DNA of 64,000 bases from contig OX597817.1 in assembly GCA_951406725.2 (NCBI GenBank), positions 129,208,001-129,272,000 on the forward strand, given 5' to 3'. The stretch is from Octopus vulgaris. Lineage: Eukaryota. The notes beneath the pieces are model-generated. The model ran no database searches. It had not been told where the DNA came from and was given only the letters and a program-made list of their open reading frames with translations. A program made the position numbers and the translations under genes. Shown one piece after another: positions 7,612-58,235 of this stretch. Each line of letters opens with the position of its first letter. Position 1 is the first letter of the stretch.

Positions 7612-10600
7612 ATTTTTTATTACCCACTAGGGGGCCAACATAGAGGGGACAATACAACCTGGTTTGGGATCAGATACACAAATATGAAAAAACAAAAATG
7701 AATGTTAAAATTTCAACAAATATAATTCGAATGATATAACAATACTGTAAGACAAGACAAATAGAGTGGAGAGACGGGTACGGCTTGGACCCCACAAACC
7801 CCATTTCGCCACTGATAACTGATGCAAGTCATTTGTCGTATTCATGCTGTTACTTTCATACGCAACATCCGTACTACATTATTCCATCGACTATCAAACA
7901 TTTTCGCCAACAGGCATCTTTTCTCTAGCTCTATTTTTCTTTTCAGGTGAAACCTAAAGAAATTCACAAGTTCAGAGCCAGAGCTGCAGATACTTGTCTT
8001 TAGTCCTTTCATTCTAGTCTTTCAAATCACCTCCTTCGCAATTGCTATTACTGATAGAAAGCAATTCTTACCTTTTTTCGATAAGGAAACAGCTGGGTCA
8101 TTTTTTATAATTGACTCAGCAACAGCTTTACACTTCCTACACTCGACAACGGTTGTTCAGCACAAACCCACACGCCTGACACCTCTGAGCACTGAACAAT
8201 AGCATGCAGGACTGTTTCCCTACCCTGCCCGCATCTTGGACAGGTCGATGGGCCGGGGCAACCGTGTCTTGTTAGCTTGTCACGAACAGGCAAGTCTCCT
8301 CGGTAACACTGCCAAGCCAGAGACTTCTGAAAATTATCCAGGGTCTTCGGCCCGAATGTACGCTGGAACAGACTGGCCAGCTGATTATCATCGAGACCTA
8401 GGGCTTCCCCTAAGGTGTCGTCACATTCCAACTACCATCCCTCTGTAGAAAGATGCGGTTGAACCCCCACCGCTGGCATTACCCGAGCGACAGAATAGCA
8501 GGAGAGCCATGCGGCACTCCGTAAACCATGCACCGAACTTTGATCTATGATAGAACTAGGTTTCCCATCCACTGAAACTAGTGAACCTGTGAAACATCTG
8601 TTTCGCCAGCGGAGACCACACCCGTTCAACGTCCAAGTGGAGCCACAGATGTTTCAACCTCAGCGCATGTCTGCGCATCAATAGCCAAGGCATCCCTAGT
8701 CCACCCTTTAACGCTTGCTGGCAGCAAATAGAGCGTTTCACAAGTAGTTTCGAGTTCTTCCACAGGAAGCAGAAGAGTTGTCTTTCCAGCTTGATTAACC
8801 ACGAATCAAGGCAAGGAACGACGGTTAGGTGGTAAATGATGACCGATGCGATACGGCCATCCCTTTCAAGGATAACCACAAACTCGATAGTTCACCTTGC
8901 TCGATACATCAGCCCAGTTATTCTCTATTTGGAGGTCCGGACCAAACCAGACCCCTAACAACTTAATCGGACCCTCCGTCCAACGTCCTACGACGCTGTC
9001 GGGAGGCATTGACTTGCCTCTCCAGATGCCGAGCTGCAAGCCGACTGATATTTCACGATTAGTCTTTGCTCCTGCCACCGTCTCGTACGCCTTAATGACC
9101 ACGCCTATCTTCTGTAGGTGTCCCATGTCGGTTACGATAATGGTGATGTTGTCCGCATATGCTGAAACCGACTTTCCACAACCTGGTTCCCTCGGGATGC
9201 CACTCAACCTTCACAGCAATGGCTCAAGAACCATCACATTACAAAAGCGGGGAGAGTGGACAACCTTGGCGAACCGAGCGTTTGACACGGAACGGCTTTG
9301 ACAAAAAACTGTTCATCCGAACAATCTAGTCGATGTTATCATAAATTCATATGATCCATCTAAGGAAACCAAGGCCCAGGCCGAACTGCGCGAGAACGGG
9401 CACTAGGTAACGATAGTCAACCCTATCGAATGCTTTTGCTTGATCCAAATGGACTAATGCCCCATCCTTGCCAGGTTTACTATTGAATTCCTTTAAGGTG
9501 TAGCGCAGAAGGTGGAGATTATCCTGTATGGCTCTGTCAGGGACGGCACAAGTTTGTGCCTCTCCGACCAAACCATCCGCGACACGCGCCAACCTTTTCG
9601 CTAACACATTGGCCAAAATCTTCAGTTCTGTATTTAGCAGAGTGATGGGCCTAAAATTATCAACTGAATCCCCCTTTTCCGAGTCCTTTCTGACTAGCGT
9701 CACCACTCCCCTGCGCACCCGCTAGTAGTTGCCCGAACAAATCTGGCATACTCATATAACTCTTAGGGTAAACCATCCAGTCCTGGCGCCTTACTCACGC
9801 CACAGCCCCTACCACTTTCTCAGGTATGATCGGCCTCTCACAGCACTCCGCATCCTGCTCTGAAAGGCGCGGCAGCTCGGCGAGGAAGGTCGTTAGGTCC
9901 CTCCTACTCTCTGGTCCGTCGCTTCCTCCGAAAAGCTGGGTAAAGTGCTCCTGAAAGGCCTTGCACATCTCCTCGGGCTCGGTGTCAACTTACCTTGTTG
10001 GATCACTAAAGATCGAATTGCGGCATCATTACCACGTTAGGCTTCGACCACCCGGGCCCATCTCGCGGCCTTGGTTCCCTGCAACCCACTGGACGAAGTC
10101 TAGCTCTGACAATGCACCCTATGTGTTTGGCTTCGAAGTGCTGGCTTAATTCCAGTCTCTTAGCCTTCACTTGGGATGCAGAGCCAGTCCTCATCGCCTC
10201 CTCTAGATCCTTAACTAGGTCTAATTCCCTCCTAGTCTCTCTAGCCACTAAACCTATTCTATATCTAATCGACTCAAATTTAATGGCTCATTTGAGGGCA
10301 TACCACCATTTGTCAATAATAGCTCCGGTTAATGCCCTCTGTATTATCAACTTAATCCGGTTTCTGTACTCTTCAATCGCCAAAAAAGGACGTATTGAGT
10401 TTCCAGTAGCCAGAACCTCTACTATGTAGTTTATCTATGTCAAACTTACAAGTGACCATCTTGTGATCATTGTAGCTGACTAGGTGTAACTGTGAACACT
10501 TAGCTATATTTCTATCTGTTTTTCTAATCAATATTCTAACTAAATATAACCTAGAACATCCGTAGCTGCTTGACCATGTCCACAATGGAGCGTTCGGAAA

Positions 10601-12060
10601 TTCCAGTCTATATAGATCTGCTAGTTGAAAGCAACTTAGCAGACCCTGGAGGCAAGAGTTGTCCTACCTATCTGTGTACGAGCCAACATAATCCACGCGT
10701 GTATCGCAGATTCTGTTATAGTCTCCTACCAACGCTAGTGAATGTGACGTAACCAAGAAATTTTCCAGGTCACGAAAATACTCACTTTGCCCTACTGAAA
10801 TGGGTGCATAAATTGCAACCAGTCAGATAGTCTTACCACAACTGAACGTCAAATCCACGACAACCAGCCAACCGTCTGGGTCAGAAAAAATCAGCTTCTT
10901 CCCTGAAACCCAGTTTCTTTTTATTAGGACCAACACCCCACCTCCTCCCATTGGACGGTCTGGAAAAATGAATTTCTCGTAGCCGCCCAGGAGAGGGAGC
11001 AGGTCTCTTGGTCTATTAAACCAGGTTTCAGTAGCAACAATAACATCCAAATCACGTGACCTGATGTCATTTAGGAAGCTCCCTTGCTTCCTGCTCGACG
11101 TCAGGCCACGCACATTCAAACAACCAACATGAATACTCAAACGACCTACCTTACTCAGTGGTGAGAGGTGGATTCTCAAACACCTCTTTTTCTTTGACGC
11201 GGGCTTGCCCGAACTGAAGCTTTAAGCCTTCAAACCACTCTATTCTCTTCCTTGCTGCTGCTGTTTTCTTCCTGTGTTTCTATAGACGATAGTACTTCTG
11301 TTGCTGTTTCTTCCTCTTCTTCTGTATCTGTTTCTTCCTGAGGAGGGTCATATTCCGTCTTTATGTGGCCTTTCTTGCCACACTTGAAACATCTTGGCTT
11401 TCTTCCCTCTACTGCAACCACCAATCTGGTTTCTCCTACATGAATTATTCTGGAATCTCTTCCAGTTTGAGGGGCTCTGCTTGTATTAAAATAATCAGGT
11501 TTTGCCCCAGCAGTTTTTGTTTTTCTGTTACTGTCGCCTACAGTATCGTTTTTTTTTCTTCCAGAATCATAGTTATGGTTGCCACCAACCAAGTAGCATC
11601 CATTTCCGGCGGGATATTTGTTCTTTTCCCCATATAGATGGGGAGGAGAACTATTTCTTCCGTTTTGAGTGATCTGGTTGAATGGTACGCTTTTTCTTGT
11701 TAAAAGTCTCACCTCTATCGCTGCAAATTTTCTCGCTCTTGTTATACACGTTATATCTGGTCAAAGTTCTTTTAGACATTTTTCTACAGCTTCTTCTGAA
11801 ACTTTATCAATTCTTCATATCAACTTTTCATACAATATGATTTATATATGATTGTTTTCGTATTTGTATCTTCAGTTAACTTGGCGGGGTGGGCGGGCAC
11901 CTTAACCTCTGAACCCTCCTTTTTCAATATCACTTTGTAATTCTTCAGTTTTGTTTTATCAGTGTTCAAATCTTTTTTTCCCCAGCTGCCGCTGCAAAAC
12001 TAATTTTTACTGTCGATACTGCTGTTGAAGTTTTCTTTCCACTTGTCACACGAAGATGAA
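7612..12060 (-). mobile_element. Near-full-length decayed Tx1-like (L1 clade) non-LTR retrotransposon
   Basis: Collinear on the minus strand: ORF1 remnant with zinc knuckle CFKCGKKGH (11230-11712); APE endonuclease (GCLNVRGL, ATETW, SYNDHKMV, GYWKLN); RT (NFRPITLLN, LDQAKAFDRVD, RQGCPLSPLL, AYADN, GGLGMP); C-terminal zf-RVT (CPRCGQGRETVLHAIVQC). Many stops and frameshifts. 3' end ...gtgggtaataaaaaa at ~7612. Confidence 0.93.
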
Positions 12061-19420: not shown

Positions 19421-19745
19421 GGTGGAAGAGGGGTCGGAGATTCAGTCTCCTATCAGTCCCACAATCCAAACGGTAACCCTCCTTTCATAATATATAGCAC
19501 TATCCTCTTGTCTTTTGACAATGAGGATTGAGGATACAACTGAAGTGCAGGAAGTATTTTTAAAATGGACGTATATATCCCTGTGTATATGGAGATATGT
19601 AAAAGTATACACACACACACATATATATATACAAACACATAATCATACATATGCATATGTATATATATATGTGTATACACATATACATATATGTATACAT
19701 ACATAAATAAATATACATATATATATATATGTACATATATAGAAT

Positions 19746-39667: not shown

Positions 39668-40620
39668 GCCGGTGAGCTGGCAGAATCGTTAGCACGCTAG
39701 ACGATTTACTTAGCGGTATTTCGTCTGCCGCTACGTTCTGAGTTCAAATTCCGCCGAGGTCGTCTTTGCTTTTCATCCTTTCGGGGTCGATTAAATAAGT
39801 ACCAGTTACTCACTGGGGTTGATATAATCGACTTAATCCGTTTGTCGGTTCTTGATTGTCCTCTCTGTGTTTAGCCCCTTGTTGGTAGTAAAGAAATAGG
39901 TATTTCGTCTACCGCTACGTTCTGAGTTCAAATTCCGCCGAGGTCGACTTTGCCTTTCATCCTCTCGGAGTCGATTAAATAAGTACCAGTTACGCACTGC
40001 GGTCGTTATAATCGACTTAATCCGTTTGTCTGTACTTGTTTGTCCCCTCTGTGTTTAGCACCTTGTGGGTAGTAAAGAAATAGGTATTTCGTCTACCGCT
40101 ACATTCTGAGTTCAAATTCCGCCGAGGTCGACTTTGCCTTTCATCCTTTCGGGGTCGATTAAATAAGTATCAGTTAGGCACTGGGGTCGATATAATCGAC
40201 TTAATCCGTTTGTCTGTCCTTGTTTGTCCTCTCTGTGTTTAGCCCCTTGTGGGTAGAAAAGAAATAGGTATTTCGTCTGCCGTTACGTTCTGAGTTCAAA
40301 TTCCGCCGAGGTCAGCTTTGCCTTTCATCCTTTCGAGGTCAATTAAATAAGTACCAGTTACGCACTGGGGTCGATATGATCGATTTAATTCGTTTGTCTG
40401 TCCTTGTTTGTCCCCTCTGTGTGTAGACCCTTGTGGGCAGTAAAGAAATAAGTATTTCGTCTGCCTCTGCGTTCTGAGTTCAGTTCCACCGGAGTCGGCT
40501 TTGCCTTTTATCCTTTCGTGGTTGATAAATTAAGTACCACTGAAACATTGGAGTCGATTACATTGACTAGTCCCCACCCATTCAGAATTTCAAGGCCGTG
40601 TGCCTTTAGTAGAAAGGATT
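39668..40620 (+). repeat. Tandem array of SINE family C, 184-bp period
   Basis: ggtatttcgtct recurs at 39715, 39899, 40083, 40267 and 40451 (agtatttcgtct). One head at 39668; the last unit is more diverged and has a different tail. Confidence 0.93.
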
Positions 40621-41145
40621 ATATGATAGTATGTAAGGCGACGAGCTGGTAGAATCGTTATTATGTCGGACGAAATGCTTAAAGGTATTTCGTCCATCTT
40701 TATATTGTGTTCAAATTTCGCCGAGGTCGACTTTACCTTTCGTCTGTCCGAGATCGATAAAATAATTACAAGGCAAGCATGGGGGTCGATGTAATTGACT
40801 ATCCCCCTCCCCTTCAGATTTTGTTCCTATAGTAGAAAGGATTATTTTTATATCATGTTAGACGGCGAGCTGGCAGAATTGTTAGCTTCCCGGACGAAAT
40901 GTTTGGCGGCATCTTGTCTTTCTTTACTTTCTGAGTTCAAATTCCGCCGAGGTCGACTTCGCCTTTCATCCTTTCAGGGACGATAAAATAAGTACCATTT
41001 GAGCACTGGGGTCGATGTAAACGACTTATCCCACCTATCACTGAAACTGCTGACCTTGTGCCAAAACTTGAAACCATTATACTATGGTATGTATTCTTAG
41101 TTCACAAAAATGTCCATTACAGTGCAATGATCTTATTGAGTACCA

Positions 41146-41496: not shown

Positions 41497-43913
41497 AGCA
41501 ATTTCTGATCTCGGACTGGTGGATTTATTTTGGGTGATAGTGAGATAGGTTTGTTTCCGTATGTGAGTCCTAAACGAGTTTAAAGATCTGTTCCATAAAT
41601 AGTCTTAATGGAACTTTTAGACATATACGGTCGCTTGAATTGCTTGAAATAACAGCCAAATTTTCCTTAACTTCCTATCGTTTGAAAAAAGAAAGGCCGT
41701 GTGGATAATATATTTCTAGATAAGTGGTGAATTGGTAACAGAGTTCAAATCTCACCGAGATCAACTTTACTTTTCATTCTTTCAGGTTCAATAAAACAAT
41801 GTACCAGAATAGTGAGGTGAATTTATGGAAATATTAGTTTGGATAAAATACATGACATTTGTTTTGGTTCTTTTCGTTCTAAATTCGCCTGTGATAATTG
41901 GGGTTGCCAAGCTATTTCTGCCCTCCTTTTCTCTTTGAACAAAGAGAGTGGAGACTTCTAAACATTAAAAAAGAATGAAAATGCAGCTATTGTGTAGTAC
42001 TGTAGCCTGAGAAGGAACTTTTCAAGTGCAAACATCTGGTCGATTTAGACGACAAAATTTAGGAGATACAATGTATATCTGAAAAAAAAGAAAAATTAGC
42101 GTGGGTGTGAACAGTACCTTTTTTTATATCATAGGTGTGTCAATTAAGGTTGATTTGATGCCAAACAACACCATCAAGAATGTGTTGCGTATTAGTGGCT
42201 CTTTTACTGTCAGTCGAATTATTAGGTCAAGGCTGTTTGTGCAGAAAGTCACATACGCAAGCACACTTTATTCACTGGAAAGGTGAAAAGGGCAGATCAG
42301 CTCCTCTAATTGACTGTAAACTTCGCGAAAATGTATGGTATGATTCATGTAAAAATTCAAAAAGTCGATTAATAGCAAAATTGAGAGCTGGACAAAATGC
42401 TCTGCAGTTAGAATTTCGCTGAAATCAATATTGCATTTCAATTTTCCAGTGATCGATGAAATTGAATAAAATATTAAAGAAATACAACGTTTCAGTAATC
42501 GAAGGCTGGCGTTTCACAAAATGTTTTACCTTATATTTAAGTTACAAATCATCATCATCTTTATAATTTCTTGTTTCATCTGTTTCAATAGAAGTTAAAT
42601 TTTTCCAGGGCAAAGTAGTCAATGAGGTTATATTCTTAAAGCAAATGTGGTAAAAGACAAAAGGAAGAGGATATCAAACTCGGTTGATTGTCGGTCAAAT
42701 TACTTTGCTATTATGCCATTTTGTTTGCTAATTTCAAAACTCGATTCAGTTGATTATGTCTTTAATCATTCTAGAATTGCTAAAATAAACTGCAGTCAAG
42801 TACATTACTCTGTAATCACCTTATAATATCTTTCCAAATGCTGTCACCTTTCTACTTACAAATCACTTTTATTGTTAATTACAGTGTAGTGAATTGTTAG
42901 AAACTGGAACATAATTTGTTGTGGTATTTGATTCCGCTCTTTACGTTCTGGGTTCAAAATCTTACCGAAGTCATCTTTACTTTTCAAAATTTCTACATCT
43001 ATAAAAGAAAGTGGCAGTCAAGTACCACTAAGGTCTATGCAAGGTCGGTAGATTGAGAAAATCTTAAGAGCGCGAGATAAAGTGCCTTAGATGTTAATGG
43101 CGACTCTTTACGTTGTGAGATCAATTTCCAACGAGATCGTTTATCCGCGGTGAATTAAATAAAGTACCAGTAAAGTATTGGTATTACTTTAATCGGCTAA
43201 GTACCATCCGATCGTACAAAATTTCTGGCATGGGGGTATTTAAGGTAGAGTGTTGGCAGAAACGTTACAGAAGGCGGCGATCTGGCGAAATGCTTAGCGG
43301 TTACGTTCCGAGTTCAACTTCCGCCGAGGTCAACTTTGCCTTTCAGCATTTCGGGGTCGATAAATTAAGTACCAGTTACGCATTGGGCTCGATTTAATCG
43401 ACTTAATTCCTTTGTCTGTCCTTGTTTGTCCCTTCTATGTTTAGCTCCTTGTGAGCAATAAAGAAATAAGAAACGTGAGCACGCCGGGCGAAGAGCTTAG
43501 CGGCATTTCGTCTGTCTATATATGTTCTGAGTTCAAATTTCGCCGAGGTCGACTTTGCCTTTCATCCTTTCGGGGTCGATAAATTAAATATCAGTTGCGT
43601 ACTGGGGTCGATCTAATCGACTTAATCCCTTTGTCTGTCCTTGTTTGCCCTCTCTAGATTTAGCCCCTTGTGGGCAATAAAGAAATAAGAAACGTTATAG
43701 TATCTGCGACATTTTAGCTGTGGTCCATTACATTTTGAGTTCAAATCTCACTCTGATCAGACATTTTCTTTTAGGGCGGTGGGTTGGCAAAGTCTTTTTT
43801 TACTTTCTGAGTTCATTTCCTACTGAAGTCAACTTTTTCTTTTCAGGGTCGATAACAAAGAACAATTCAAATATGGATGTCGATTAAATCTCCCTATTTC
43901 TCAAGAACTGTGC

Positions 43914-44169
43914 TTATTCTTTTATTCTTTTAGTTCTTTCAGTCATTTGACTGCGGCCATGCCGGAGCACCATCTTTAGTCGAACAAATTGATTTATTCT
44001 TCGTAAGCCAAGTACTTATTCTATCGGGGTTTTTTTTTTGCTGAGCCGCTCAGATACTGGAACGTAAACACACTACATCGGTTGTCAAGCGATGGTGGGG
44101 TGTCAAATACAGACATACATTGACATACATACATACATACATACATACATACATACATACATACATACA

Positions 44170-44201
<32 letters not shown>

Positions 44202-44358
44202 CAACATGCTTCTTTCAGTTTCCGTCTACCAAATCCATTTACAAGGTTTTGGTCGGCCCGAGGTTAACGTAGAAGATTCTTACCCAAGGTGCCACGCAGT
44301 GGGACTGAATCCAGAACCATGTGCTTGTGAAGGAATCTTCTTACCACACTACCACTCC
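43914..44358 (-). mobile_element. SINE family A (older copy, internal (TACA)n)
   Basis: Aligns with the other family A copies. Confidence 0.85.
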
Positions 44359-45716
44359 TCTGACTTTTTTCTTTCTTTTTTTTTTTTTGATAGTGAATAG
44401 GTTAATGATACAGAATTGTTAGAGTATCGAAAAAATATGTTACAATAGTTTTTCCGGCTCTTTGAATTCTACCGAGGACGACCTTACCTTTCATCCTTCC
44501 GGAGTCGATAAAATAAGGACCAGTTGAGCACTGGAGGTGATGTATCTGAATTACCCCCTCCCACAAACTAGCTGGTCTTGTGCCAAAATTCGAAACCAAT
44601 ATTTTTCTAGTCCCTCACGTTCTGAATTCAAATCCCACCGAGGCCAACTTTACTTCTCACCTCGCCATGTTTGATAAAATAAAATAAAAAAATAAAATGA
44701 AATAAAATCAACTAGTGGTTGATTCAATCGTCTAACACCCTCCCAGAAAATTTCAGACCATGTGGCTATGAGAGACAATTAAGGGCAGTGCATTAGCAGA
44801 ATTGTTAGGGCGTGGGGATAAATTCCTTGAGGCATTTCTTTCGTTTCTTTACAATCTGGGTTCAAATCTTCTCCAGATCAACTTCGCCTTTCATCCCCCT
44901 GAGTCTCAAAATATAGCTGCAATCAGGTGGTGGGGTTCATTCAATGAACATTTAACCCACTCCTCCATAAATTGAAAGTCTAGTGCTTCTGTAAGCTGTA
45001 TTTAAGAGTTGTGGAGTGACAACTAAATACCTTGCAGTATTTTGTTCTGAGTTCAAATCCTGCGGAGGACAACTTTGTCCGTTTTCCTCCTGGTTTAATT
45101 ATAAAAATAAGTACCAGTTCACTACTAGAATCGATTTAATCGACGATCCCGCTCTATTTTTATTAAGACTAACCATCAGATAGCACTGATCTTTGTGGCT
45201 CACTTTCTTTCTTGTAGTCGTTCTTTAATGACAGTTGTTAAGATATTGAGCAACACGCCTCAATCGGTTCTACTTCAAAAAAGTTTAGCGATATAGTTCT
45301 AATTCAGCCTTAATTTTAATCTCTGATGCATATCATTCTAGTAGTGGTGGGAATAAATAAATAAGAATCAGAATATATTACAATGCAGATGAAAAATAAT
45401 AACGGTCTTAATTAGGTTAAAAATTATTATTATTTACTCAATACAAACGTGGACTTATAAGTATAATAAACAAGGGAGGTAACTTTCACATTCAAGGAAA
45501 TTAACTATGAAATTAAAAGAACCATGTACATAGTTATTTCCCTTGGATTGTCAAGCTATTTTTTTTTCCTGAAATAATTTGATGAATCAAAACTACACAT
45601 ATTGCACACAAACATGTATGCATACATACATACATACATACATACATACATACATACATACATACATACATAATATCTATATCTTTATATATAGAATATA
45701 TAAACATATAGTAATA

Positions 45717-47002: not shown

Positions 47003-48336
47003 TTATTATTATTTATTCTATGTTTGACTTTTGCTTTATATTTGTACAAGTTGGCTCCAAGTCTCACCCAGAGACCTCAAGAGACAACAGGGTTGGAAGT
47101 TCATGTTGTTGTTATGCCTAGTGTGCCATATATTTGTGGGGTGGGGGTGTTGTACTAATGAAAGTCTAAAAAAAGTTGTTTTTTTTTTTTTTTTAAACCG
47201 AAAATTATGTTTGTTTTAAACCTTGAGATTACATAGAAAGTATTTTGCGTAGGATATGAGCAGTTCCCATGAGCACTATCTTTTGAATTTCTGCCATTTT
47301 TGGGTTTCCTGGTATCTGAGTTAGGTAGTTATCAGCCCCTTTTGCTATCATTCCCAGGGCACCTATGACAACAGGTATTGTTTTAGTCTTCAGGTTCCAC
47401 ATTTTGCTGATTTCTATTTCAAGATCTTTATATTTGCTCAGTTTTGGTAGGTCTTGACAGACACGTTTATATCGATTGGGACAGTCATATCAATGAGGAG
47501 GCATGTTCTTTGTTTGAAGTCTTTCAATATGATGTCTGGCCTATTTGCATCTATCTTTCTGTCAGTTTGAATGGTGAAGTTCCAGAGGAGTGAGCTGTGG
47601 TCATTTTCAAGCACTGGGGGTGGTTTGTGTTCCCACCAGTTTTTTTCATGGGGCCAATCCAGATTTTTACAGATTACCCAGTGAATATATTGTGCAGCTC
47701 TATCGTGCCTGTTGAGATACTCTGTAGGCGCTAGAAGACTGCACTTGGAGACCACATGGTCAATGGTTTCATTTTGTTGCTTGCATACACGACACGTTGG
47801 ACTGCTTCTGATCTTTAATATGTTGGCCTGGTAGTTTCTTGTTGGTAGGCATTGATCTTGAGCTGCTATGATAAACACTTCTGTTTCAGATTTTAAGCCA
47901 GAGGCCATTAGCCATTGATGGGTCAGGGCTTTGTCAACATCTGCATTATTTGCTCTCTTTGGGTATTTGCCATAGAGAGGTTTTTCTTGCCATTTATCAT
48001 TCAGAATATCTAAGGCCGCAGATTTAGCGCGGGTTTTCATGCGCTTAGCTTTTTCTGTGCCTGTTTCTTGTATGTCTATCTCTAATTCCGAAATTTGTTG
48101 TATTCGGAATTCACTTAGATATTCCTTTGCCTGTTTTGTTACTGAGTATGATGCTTTCTTGTTTTCATGTTTTGAGACAAGTTTTAACATCCAGTCCTCA
48201 GAGTTTTTCAGGTAGGTGTCTAGGCCAATTGTAGCAATCTTCATTGTTATTGCCAGTTGTAAAAGTCCACGGCCTCCCTCTTTTCTTGGCAGATAAAGTC
48301 GTTCTGTATCTGCCTTAGGGTGGTGCATTCTATGCA

Positions 48337-48337
<1 letters not shown>
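47003..48337 (-). mobile_element. 5'-truncated R4/Dong-type non-LTR retrotransposon (RLE endonuclease) in a (TAA)n tract
   Basis: RLYLPRKEGGRGL; CRVCKQQNETIDHVVSKC zinc knuckle; RHD; NRPDIIL...LIDMTVP...KYKDL (PD-(D/E)xK). One frameshift near 47440; ORF ends ~47230. TAA repeats at both junctions. Confidence 0.92.
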
Positions 48338-48421
<84 letters not shown>

Positions 48422-48445
48422 GTATAGATTACTGTATCTAGTGAA

Positions 48446-48782
48446 GGCGCATGGCTCAGTGGTTAGAGCGTCGAGCTTACGATCGTGAGGTTGTGAGTTC
48501 GATGCCCGGACCGGGCTGCATGTTTTCTTATTGAGCAAGACACTTTATTTCACGTTGAACCAGTTAACTCTACTATAGAAATGAGTTGCGACATCACTAG
48601 TGCCAAGCTGTATCGGCATTTGCCTTTCCCTTAGATAACATCACTGATGTGGAGAGGGGAGGCTTGTATGCATGGGTGATGGCTGGCCTTCCATAAACAA
48701 CCTTGCCTGGACTTGTACCTCGGAGGATAACTTTCTAGGTACAATCCCATGGTCATTTATAACCGAAGCGGGTATCCCAGTA
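48446..48782 (+). mobile_element. SINE family B, full-length, with 9-bp TSD
   Basis: Head ggcgcatggctcagtggttagagcg...gagttcgatgccc; tatctagtg is duplicated immediately before the head (~48434) and at 48783. Confidence 0.9.
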
Positions 48783-57346: not shown

Positions 57347-57910
57347 GTCCTTTCTACTATAGGCACAATTGAAATTTTAGGGGAAAAAGTTGATCGAATC
57401 CATTGATCCCAAAGCTAGCTGGTGCTTACTTTACTGACCCTGAAAGAATGAAAGGCAAAGTCCACCTCAGCGACATTTGAACTCAGAACGCAAAACCGAA
57501 AGAAATGTGTCGCTGAACATTTTGTCCGGAGTTTTAAAGATTTTACCAGCTCGCTGCACCTAACAGTCTATAGCTACAAAGCCTTAAATTTTGTGGGAAG
57601 GACCTGACTGATTACCTCGATCCTCAGTGTTCAACTAGTACTTATTTCATAGACCCCGAAACGATGAAAGGTAAATTAATCATGGTGGGATCTGGACTCG
57701 GAACGTGAAGCGCCGCAAGAAATACTACAGAGCATTCAGCCCGATGGATTAACGATTCTGCTATCTTAAAAACACTCAAAATTTAGTACAAGGTCAGCAG
57801 ATCTTTATTTCATCAATCTCAAAAGGATAAAAAGACAAGTTGACCTCGACTGGTTTTAACTCAAAGGCTAGAATAAATACCACAAGGCATTTGTACACGC
57901 TAATAATTAT
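57017..57910 (-). mobile_element. Four head-to-tail SINE family C copies
   Basis: Reverse-complement core near 57100, 57440, 57650 and 57820; (ATT)n and (ATC)n tails adjoin the first two copies. Confidence 0.8.
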
Positions 57911-57916
57911 GAGAAG

Positions 57917-58235
57917 GATTTCTTTTATTTACCACAGGGGCCTCAAATGAAGGAACGTTACAAAGCAGGTTACATGAAATGGTGGGATTTACATAAAATA
58001 AGCGGAGTAAAGAAATGGGGAAAATATATACGTTTTACAAATTCAAGGATGACATAGTCCCCCTAACGTAAGCTGACCTCTAGCTAGTATTAATCAAAGG
58101 AGCTCACAAATTCAAGATCACTCTGACCATCATGAACATGTACCCTTGTTCACCGAACTGCAAACGCATGTTAAGTGTAGTTCCATCTACTGTAAGCATT
58201 TTCGCAATAATTAACAACCTTCTGATAAATTCGCC
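57917..58235 (-). mobile_element. 3' end of another Tx1-like LINE
   Basis: C-terminal FIRRLLIIAKMLTVDGTTLNMRL is weakly similar to the ORF2 end of the 7.6-12 kb LINE. Tail ggcccctgtggtaaataaaaagaaat. Confidence 0.5.

What the first reader, a model, noticed from the sequence alone, without database searches (positions are those of the whole stretch)
43245..43760. Self-targeting: SINE C inserted into the A-box of older SINE C copies, with a TSD
Seen: agaaacgtta is duplicated at 43258-43267 and 43688-43697, splitting an older head (ttggc|agaaacgtta...). The inner tail at ~43468 again joins agaaacgtgagcacgcc, the same head position. The Tx1-like end at ~57917 also lands a few bases upstream of the equivalent site of a SINE C on the same strand. 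Established: many Tx1-clade LINEs are sequence-specific for multicopy small-RNA genes or repeats. Inference: a Tx1/SINE system that uses the SINE's own tRNA-like head as a safe-harbour target, which would also disrupt the resident Pol III promoter.
Basis: partly seen in the sequence, partly recalled or inferred. Interest (0 to 1): 0.75.

Follow-up and report, generated by a model that had tools for sequence, protein, structure and literature searches.

The report
Octopus SINE homing into SINE heads
A very abundant short jumping element, likely from an octopus, lands in other copies of the same kind of element at two exact positions; this locus shows the rarer one, and a long retrotransposon that likely supplies the enzymes uses the commoner one.

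Summary
Real, but the A-box is the minor site. At 43258-43700 a tRNA-type SINE with a LINE-like tail sits in an older, sister-family SINE head between 13-bp target duplications (one mismatch); a second copy joins the same A-box nucleotide. Genome-wide, 2,776 of 117,398 exact tails join this A-box site and 34,373 join a second site 33 bp downstream, between the A and B boxes. In 188 unselected tails: 7 A-box, 79 second site, 98 outside SINEs. A LINE family ends at the second site in 80 of 100 listed copies; I found no A-box-specific LINE. A two-base tail variant predicts the site (87 versus 9 of 100). Most junctions are seamless, so the promoter is rebuilt, not destroyed. Most likely mechanism: loose nicking, primer pairing with RNA read-through, and homologous 5' joining; endonuclease-only targeting remains possible. 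Closest known: crocodilian Tx1-Mar/SINEU in Mariner-N4. This scan noted the system before in other windows of this genome.

The parts
43250..43257 (+). 5' part of the old host SINE head, up to the A-box cut (ends TGGC)
43258..43270 (+). Left target-site duplication (13 bp, one C/T difference from the right copy)
   Evidence: present in a related species about 8% diverged in the flank
43271..43286 (+). First 16 bases of the inserted LINE-tailed SINE (its own head start)
43287..43468 (+). Unit A: likely a second, 5'-truncated insertion at the A-box cut of the first, joined by a GGC microhomology without duplication; LINE-like tail 43403-43468
   Evidence: truncated LINE copies at the second site also show 0-2 bp duplications; order of events inferred
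43469..43687 (+). Unit B: rest of the first inserted SINE from the A-box cut; body carries sister-family diagnostic bases; LINE-like tail 43622-43687
43688..43700 (+). Right target-site duplication
43701..43890 (+). Remainder of the old, decayed host (B-box-like stretch near 43737; further body match 43800-43890), no LINE-type tail
39671..40630 (+). Second array: four tails (ending 39898, 40082, 40266, 40450) joined to the main site between A and B boxes; last unit has a sister-family tail
7612..12060 (-). Decayed L1/Tx1-type LINE with a similar tail, not inserted in a SINE head; 5' end approximate
57890..57960 (-). Tail-like stretch ending at 57918, a few bases upstream of the A-box site of a decayed SINE; weak

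Best explanation
The locus is a SINE inserted into the A box of an older SINE with a 13-bp target duplication, likely by target-primed reverse transcription using an L1/Tx1-type LINE's enzymes, and likely followed by a second insertion at the same base. Shown: two fixed landing sites in the shared head (A box, minor; 33 bp downstream, major), a LINE family specific for the major site, tail variants tied to site, and mostly seamless 5' joins. Inferred: the endonuclease nicks loosely (N-R-T-A-T or AGAA-like). The SINE has no T4 terminator and the LINE ends just after AATAAA, so their RNAs would run a few bases into the host they sit in. That read-through would pair with the nicked primer and favour the same site again. 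The cDNA would then anneal to the homologous head, giving head-to-tail arrays with a rebuilt promoter.
For: Counts. Independent insertion: head-after-site patterns occur 55 times (A box) and 186 times (major site) against 4 behind the B box; matching duplications in 11 of 30 and 22 of 30 fetched loci. Sister-family hosts are more diverged than the inserted unit (6.4% vs 3.5%, n=22, p=0.018) and as diverged as solo copies (7.2-7.5% vs 7.4%). LINE at the major site: 28 of 30, 80 of 100 listed, 18 off-target, 2 unclear. Its off-targets and the SINE's non-SINE targets share N-R-T-A-T. Tail variant predicts site: C variant in 87 of 100 A-box rows vs 9 of 100 major-site rows; outside SINEs 16 of 19 AG-starting vs 8 of 60 GG-starting flanks. 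First base after the tail: the young LINE subfamily sits in the minority C-type host in 6 of 6 fetched copies, two of them 5'-truncated; C is 49 of 80 at LINE junctions, 1 of 87 at SINE junctions, 29 of 165 in intact heads. The endonuclease hairpin region is the same length as L1's and nearly identical among families with different targets. No T4 run in the SINE consensus; match to the major site in non-SINE flanks fades to background by base 8. Precedent for RNA-target pairing in SART1Bm and R1Bm: PMC7265360, passages.
Against: The test for RNA-templated bases at the junction weakened on a stricter, larger set: 13 toward vs 1 away but 13 vs 5, p=0.096. Two full-length major-site insertions kept the host's non-consensus first base on both sides (L247, L257). 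No significant long overwriting of hosts at the major site (8 of 30 vs 5 of 38 solo copies with the inserted-family alleles). Site-tail coupling could reflect different LINE partners at different times. No A-box-specific LINE was found: 1 of 30, 2 of 30 and 1-2 of 30 ends in three families, and two of those queries were themselves A-box copies. No RNA ends were observed.
Confidence: 0.58

Rival explanations
1. Endonuclease-only targeting: several Tx1-type LINEs, each with its own nicking specificity, mobilised different SINE subfamilies at different times; one nicks the major site, another (unfound or extinct) the A box.
For: A LINE family is 80-93% specific for the major site and shares the N-R-T-A-T off-target motif with the SINE. 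PMC4494074 (passages) states that target choice is mainly set by the endonuclease. LINE-like ends of at least five tail types occur at the A-box site (7 of 30 loci).
Against: No A-box-specific family found in three families examined. The hairpin region barely differs between families with different targets. Flank motifs track close relatives within one LINE family (nearest-neighbour match 3.0 vs 2.46 shuffled, p=0.005). Seamless junctions outnumber duplication-plus-head junctions about 50- to 180-fold, which nicking alone does not explain.
Confidence: 0.28
2. Most junctions are not targeted insertions but copies of pre-formed dimers (read-through transcripts, template jumps in one event, unequal crossing-over or segmental duplication).
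For: Same-family junctions are in excess among seamless ones (52 same vs 19 sister) compared with duplication-flanked ones (9 vs 11) and LINE ends (12 vs 13), and both units are equally diverged (2.9% vs 3.0%). Neighbouring units share rare alleles above control. 5' template-jump-like head duplications exist. Four A-box loci were copies of one larger segment.
Against: Cannot explain duplication-flanked insertions with locus-private bases, LINE insertions at the same base, or older, heterogeneous hosts. It probably explains part of the same-family arrays, so the share of insertion events that hit a SINE is nearer one third than one half (my estimate).
Confidence: 0.08
3. Tethering: a LINE protein binds the Pol III machinery on SINE heads (as recalled for Ty3 and Dictyostelium TRE elements) and directs nicking to fixed offsets.
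For: Both sites lie inside the internal promoter, and A-box junctions exceed what the AGAA(A/T) motif alone predicts (628 motifs vs 11 heads in the window).
Against: Insertion recurs at sites whose upstream head has been replaced by a tail or a whole LINE. Half of the insertions are outside SINEs with the same short motifs. tRNA-gene targets were not looked for.
Confidence: 0.06

Closest known systems
Crocodilian Tx1-Mar LINEs with SINEU passengers in Mariner-N4_AMi (Kojima 2015, PMC4494074; passages read)
   Same: LINE and passenger SINE share a target inside another mobile element; tandem insertions around a target duplication; passenger specificity varies (13-90% there).
   Different: Here the target is the passenger's own tRNA-type head and that of its sister SINEs; two sites tied to tail variants; joins mostly seamless through homology.
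Xenopus Tx1 in Tx1D; Keno in U2 snRNA; Kibi/Koshi in microsatellites (as summarised in PMC4494074)
   Same: APE-type LINEs with a fixed site in a multicopy sequence.
   Different: None of the targets named in the passages read is a SINE; clade membership of the octopus LINE was not tested by phylogeny.
SART1Bm and R1Bm primer pairing with target-like RNA 3' ends (PMC7265360, passages); R2 co-transcription with target (mentioned in PMC4494074)
   Same: Target-like bases at the RNA 3' end improve accurate priming; likely what read-through does here.
   Different: Shown experimentally there, only inferred here; there it refines a site set by the endonuclease, here it may help choose the site.
Octopus OR1/OR2 CORE-type tRNA SINEs (Ohshima and Okada 1994, as cited in PMC4824008 and PMC4758252) and SINE-derived satellites of squamates (PMC10702118, passages)
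   Same: Probably the same SINE stock (CORE-like body recalled, not compared); short head-to-tail SINE arrays.
   Different: No sequence comparison was possible; the squamate arrays are attributed mainly to unequal recombination, not to a LINE-tail-defined junction.

Membership tests
tRNA-derived SINE (SINE2) | Internal Pol III A and B boxes | tested here: inconclusive
   A relaxed A-box pattern (recalled consensus) matches at consensus position 13; the B-box-like stretch has one extra base and fails the strict pattern. ARAGORN finds no tRNA in the window; no tRNA Rfam match in a locus holding a young copy.
tRNA-derived SINE (SINE2) | Short, non-coding, dispersed, high copy, flanked by target duplications | tested here: met
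   233 bp; 117,398 exact tail matches; duplications mostly 12-18 bp in 53 of 136 full-length non-SINE insertions.
LINE-SINE pair with shared 3' tail | Last 40-60 bases homologous to a LINE 3' end | tested here: met
   About 45 terminal bases align to several LINE families including the major-site one; similarity does not single out one partner.
L1/Tx1-group LINE | ORF1 zinc knuckle; ORF2 APE endonuclease, RT, C-terminal zinc motif | tested here: met
   Pfam on intact relative L069; human L1 ORF2p is the best solved-structure match; major-site LINE aligns along ORF2, mostly 55-77% identity.
Tx1 clade (strict) | RT phylogeny grouping with named Tx1 elements | not testable with these tools
   No named Tx1 references returned; best hits are unnamed or fish hypothetical proteins at 25-30% identity.
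Target-specific non-LTR element (over 20% of flanks in one repeat, criterion of PMC4494074) | Major site between A and B boxes | tested here: met
   SINE 79 of 188; LINE 28 of 30 and 80 of 100.
Target-specific non-LTR element (over 20% of flanks in one repeat, criterion of PMC4494074) | A-box site | tested here: not met
   7 of 188 overall; 7 of 54 for the C tail variant; no LINE family above 2 of 30.
Endonuclease-determined specificity | Endonuclease nicks the target in vitro | not testable with these tools
   Needs a bench assay.

The most novel reading that the evidence does not exclude
Target memory written in RNA: each source copy reads through into the site it occupies, and that flank programs where its daughters land, so LINE and SINE sub-lineages inherit and switch targets (A box, inter-box site, C- versus G-type hosts) without changing the endonuclease. 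A truncated daughter regains a promoter from the head it lands in, making self-homing self-reinforcing.
Probability: 0.35. Interest if true: 0.82.

Novelty: new variant of a known kind. Interest (0 to 1): 0.56.

Why it matters
SINEs are the largest repeat class in octopus genomes (PMC8967140, passages), and this family places a third to a half of its copies inside SINE heads, which changes copy-number, age and insertion-site estimates. It offers thousands of natural events, plus young near-intact LINE copies (98-99% alike), to test how much of a non-LTR element's target choice comes from the endonuclease and how much from RNA-primer pairing. That question bears on programmable retrotransposon insertion.

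Tried and rejected
Empty-site search in public runs: contigs of four runs of a species about 8% diverged carry the left junction, so the insertion is old and no empty allele was seen; laying the whole locus was swamped by repeats. The first partner candidate (L069 family) was rejected as the main targeting LINE: 0 of 30 ends at the major site. Two further LINE-like families found at the A box were not specific. Four A-box loci with identical flanks were segmental copies, not evidence of RNA guidance. Long overwriting of hosts by read-through RNA was not significant. The allele test used wrong positions and was redone. The pattern had a one-base slip, so its zero means nothing. One search listed mostly SINE-like tails and gave no A-box LINE family (no loci read). 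The control at 95-110 (37 matches) was largely partial-head duplications at 5' ends. Rfam on four loci gave nothing above a gathering score for the LINEs' other targets. Nine paper searches showed no report of a SINE or LINE targeting its own SINE head; Repbase, Kojima and Fujiwara 2004 and all supplements were not seen.

Full report
Setting. The window lies in a 2.80-Gb genome of 227 contigs. Genome size and repeat content suggest an octopus (inference). The element called SINE C is a 233-bp unit: tRNA-type head, a body shared with sister families, and a 66-bp tail whose last 45 or so bases align to the 3' ends of several L1/Tx1-type LINE families. Sister families share head and body, differ at five diagnostic positions and end in other tails.

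The locus. AGAAACGTTA stands at 43258 and 43688. The match runs to 13 bp with one C/T difference, within the 12-18 bp usual for this SINE. Both copies lack a consensus G, so the duplication arose at this locus. Inside are the head start (43271-43286), a unit lacking consensus positions 17-37 and ending in a tail at 43468, and a second unit running from the A-box cut to a tail at 43687. The simplest reading (inferred) is two events: a full-length insertion into an old host, then a 5'-truncated insertion at the same base of the new head, joined by GGC microhomology. A dimer inserted at once cannot be excluded from this locus alone. The host shows no LINE-type tail. Contigs of a species about 8% diverged carry the left junction, so the outer event is old. 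The 57918 end is off by 6-7 bases and has no LINE body behind it among my loci.

How general. Exact 22-base tails number 117,398; 2,776 are followed by the A-box sequence and 34,373 by the sequence 33 bp further on, between A and B boxes. These are lower bounds. In 188 tails from loci not chosen by flank (start of contig 1 plus 30 near-consensus copies genome-wide), 79 joined the second site, 7 the A box, 4 other SINE positions and 98 no SINE.

Insertion or duplication. The anatomy seen here (site, short duplication, new head) is rare: 55 pattern matches at the A box, 186 at the second site, 4 behind the B box; some matches are tandem repeats at one locus. Of 30 loci fetched for each site, 11 and 22 had the duplication again after a tail; hosts were sister-family in 10 of 11 and 11 of 22. 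All other junctions are seamless head-to-tail joins. Where the downstream unit is a sister family it is more diverged than the upstream unit (6.4% vs 3.5%, n=22, p=0.018) and as diverged as solo copies, as expected for insertion into existing hosts. Same-family joins are equally diverged and in excess (52 vs 19), so part of them probably come from multimers or later duplication. At the A box, 8 of 14 typed upstream units switch from host-type to insert-type alleles along their length, which fits homologous 5' joining or chimeric sources.

The LINE. My first candidate family (intact ORF2 of 1,132 aa) had 1 of 30 ends at the A box and none at the second site. Notes from this scan pointed to a SINE-specific LINE, and I then found one: 28 of 30 ends fall on the second site. 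Of 109 exact tail matches, 100 were listed: 80 on site, 18 off site, 2 unclear (counted by hand). Full-length copies show the host head and a short duplication on the left, and a young subfamily has copies 98-99% alike. At the A box, 7 of 30 loci with a one-base-shifted junction had LINE-like tails of at least five types, but the two families followed up were not specific (2 of 30 and 1-2 of 30, query included).

What sets the site. Pre-insertion sites outside SINEs read N-R-T-A-T with G avoided just before the cut, like the LINE's off-targets, which points to a loosely specific endonuclease. Several observations point to an added role of the RNA end. A tail variant predicts the site inside and outside SINEs (87 vs 9 of 100 rows, counted by hand; 16 of 19 vs 8 of 60). 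The SINE has no T4 terminator, and the match to the second site fades by base 8 in non-SINE flanks. The first base after the tail is C in 49 of 80 LINE junctions, 1 of 87 SINE junctions and 29 of 165 intact heads, and 6 of 6 young LINE copies sit in the C-type host. The hairpin region of the endonuclease, recalled as a specificity determinant, has L1's length and hardly differs among families with different targets. Against this, the junction-overwriting test fell from 13:1 (41 duplications) to 13:5, p=0.096 (53 duplications, microsatellite flanks dropped), long overwriting was not significant, and changes of partner over time could produce the same couplings. I put the combined model at 0.58 and endonuclease-only targeting at 0.28.

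Promoter. After an A-box insertion the duplication restores the A box on the upstream unit and the insert supplies a B box; only the downstream remnant loses its A box (what the sequence shows; activity untested). 'Disruption' is better described as capture of the host's 5' end.

Comparison. PMC4494074 (passages) describes Tx1-Mar and SINEU sharing a target in a Mariner element, with tandem insertions. PMC7265360 (passages) describes target-like RNA ends improving priming. PMC3747384, PMC8967140, PMC10702118, PMC4824008 and PMC4758252 were read as passages. Nine searches showed no SINE targeted in its own head; Repbase and supplements were not seen. The system works like Tx1-Mar/SINEU. Strict Tx1 membership is untested, and the A-box site alone fails the 20% criterion for target specificity.

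Verdict. A real, clear example of a minor landing site in a larger self-homing LINE/SINE system that this scan has noted before. New variant of a known kind; interest 0.56.

Noticed in passing
G000 C30:10.43-10.45 Mb, C22:14.18-14.25 Mb, C27:32.95-32.99 Mb, C58 (L061-L066, L079, L080): Head-to-tail arrays of young LINEs with open 1,132-aa ORF2 (period about 5.28 kb); many related families end within one shared leader-like repeat that resembles their own 5' ends.
   Followed up: partly
L530, L531, L533, L534 (first 130 bases): Four full-length young LINE copies begin with a near-identical C-type SINE head, two sharing a rare base; the head may be part of the LINE transcript.
   Followed up: partly
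L342-L371: Partial SINE heads ending at CCTTT are fused in front of full-length copies, sometimes repeated up to six times; suggests template jumps onto prematurely terminated Pol III RNAs.
   Followed up: partly
L117; L418: Internally deleted LINEs (ORF1, start of ORF2, then the 3' end) inserted at the A-box site and the major site.
   Followed up: no
L206/L395 (C16:43228160): A LINE of one family inserted at the A box of the SINE head that fronts a major-site LINE.
   Followed up: no
L041, L048: Two LINE ends of another tail type fall about 15-20 bases upstream of the major site; possibly a third site.
   Followed up: no
L039/L053, L050/L051/L060, L194/L196, L504-L521: Small groups of LINE copies share other fixed flanks, i.e. 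further repeat targets; no Rfam match at gathering score for those tested.
   Followed up: partly
L376, L377, L386, L390: A stretch of over 2 kb holding a SINE array is copied on four contigs at 95-97% identity, likely carried by a larger element.
   Followed up: partly
window 47438-48544 (-): 368-aa frame with a zf-RVT match, a fragment of another LINE; further transposon-like frames at 19743, 22982, 49275, 53322, 59966 and 63246.
   Followed up: no
window 43900-44360: Copies of other abundant short repeats directly downstream of the locus.
   Followed up: no
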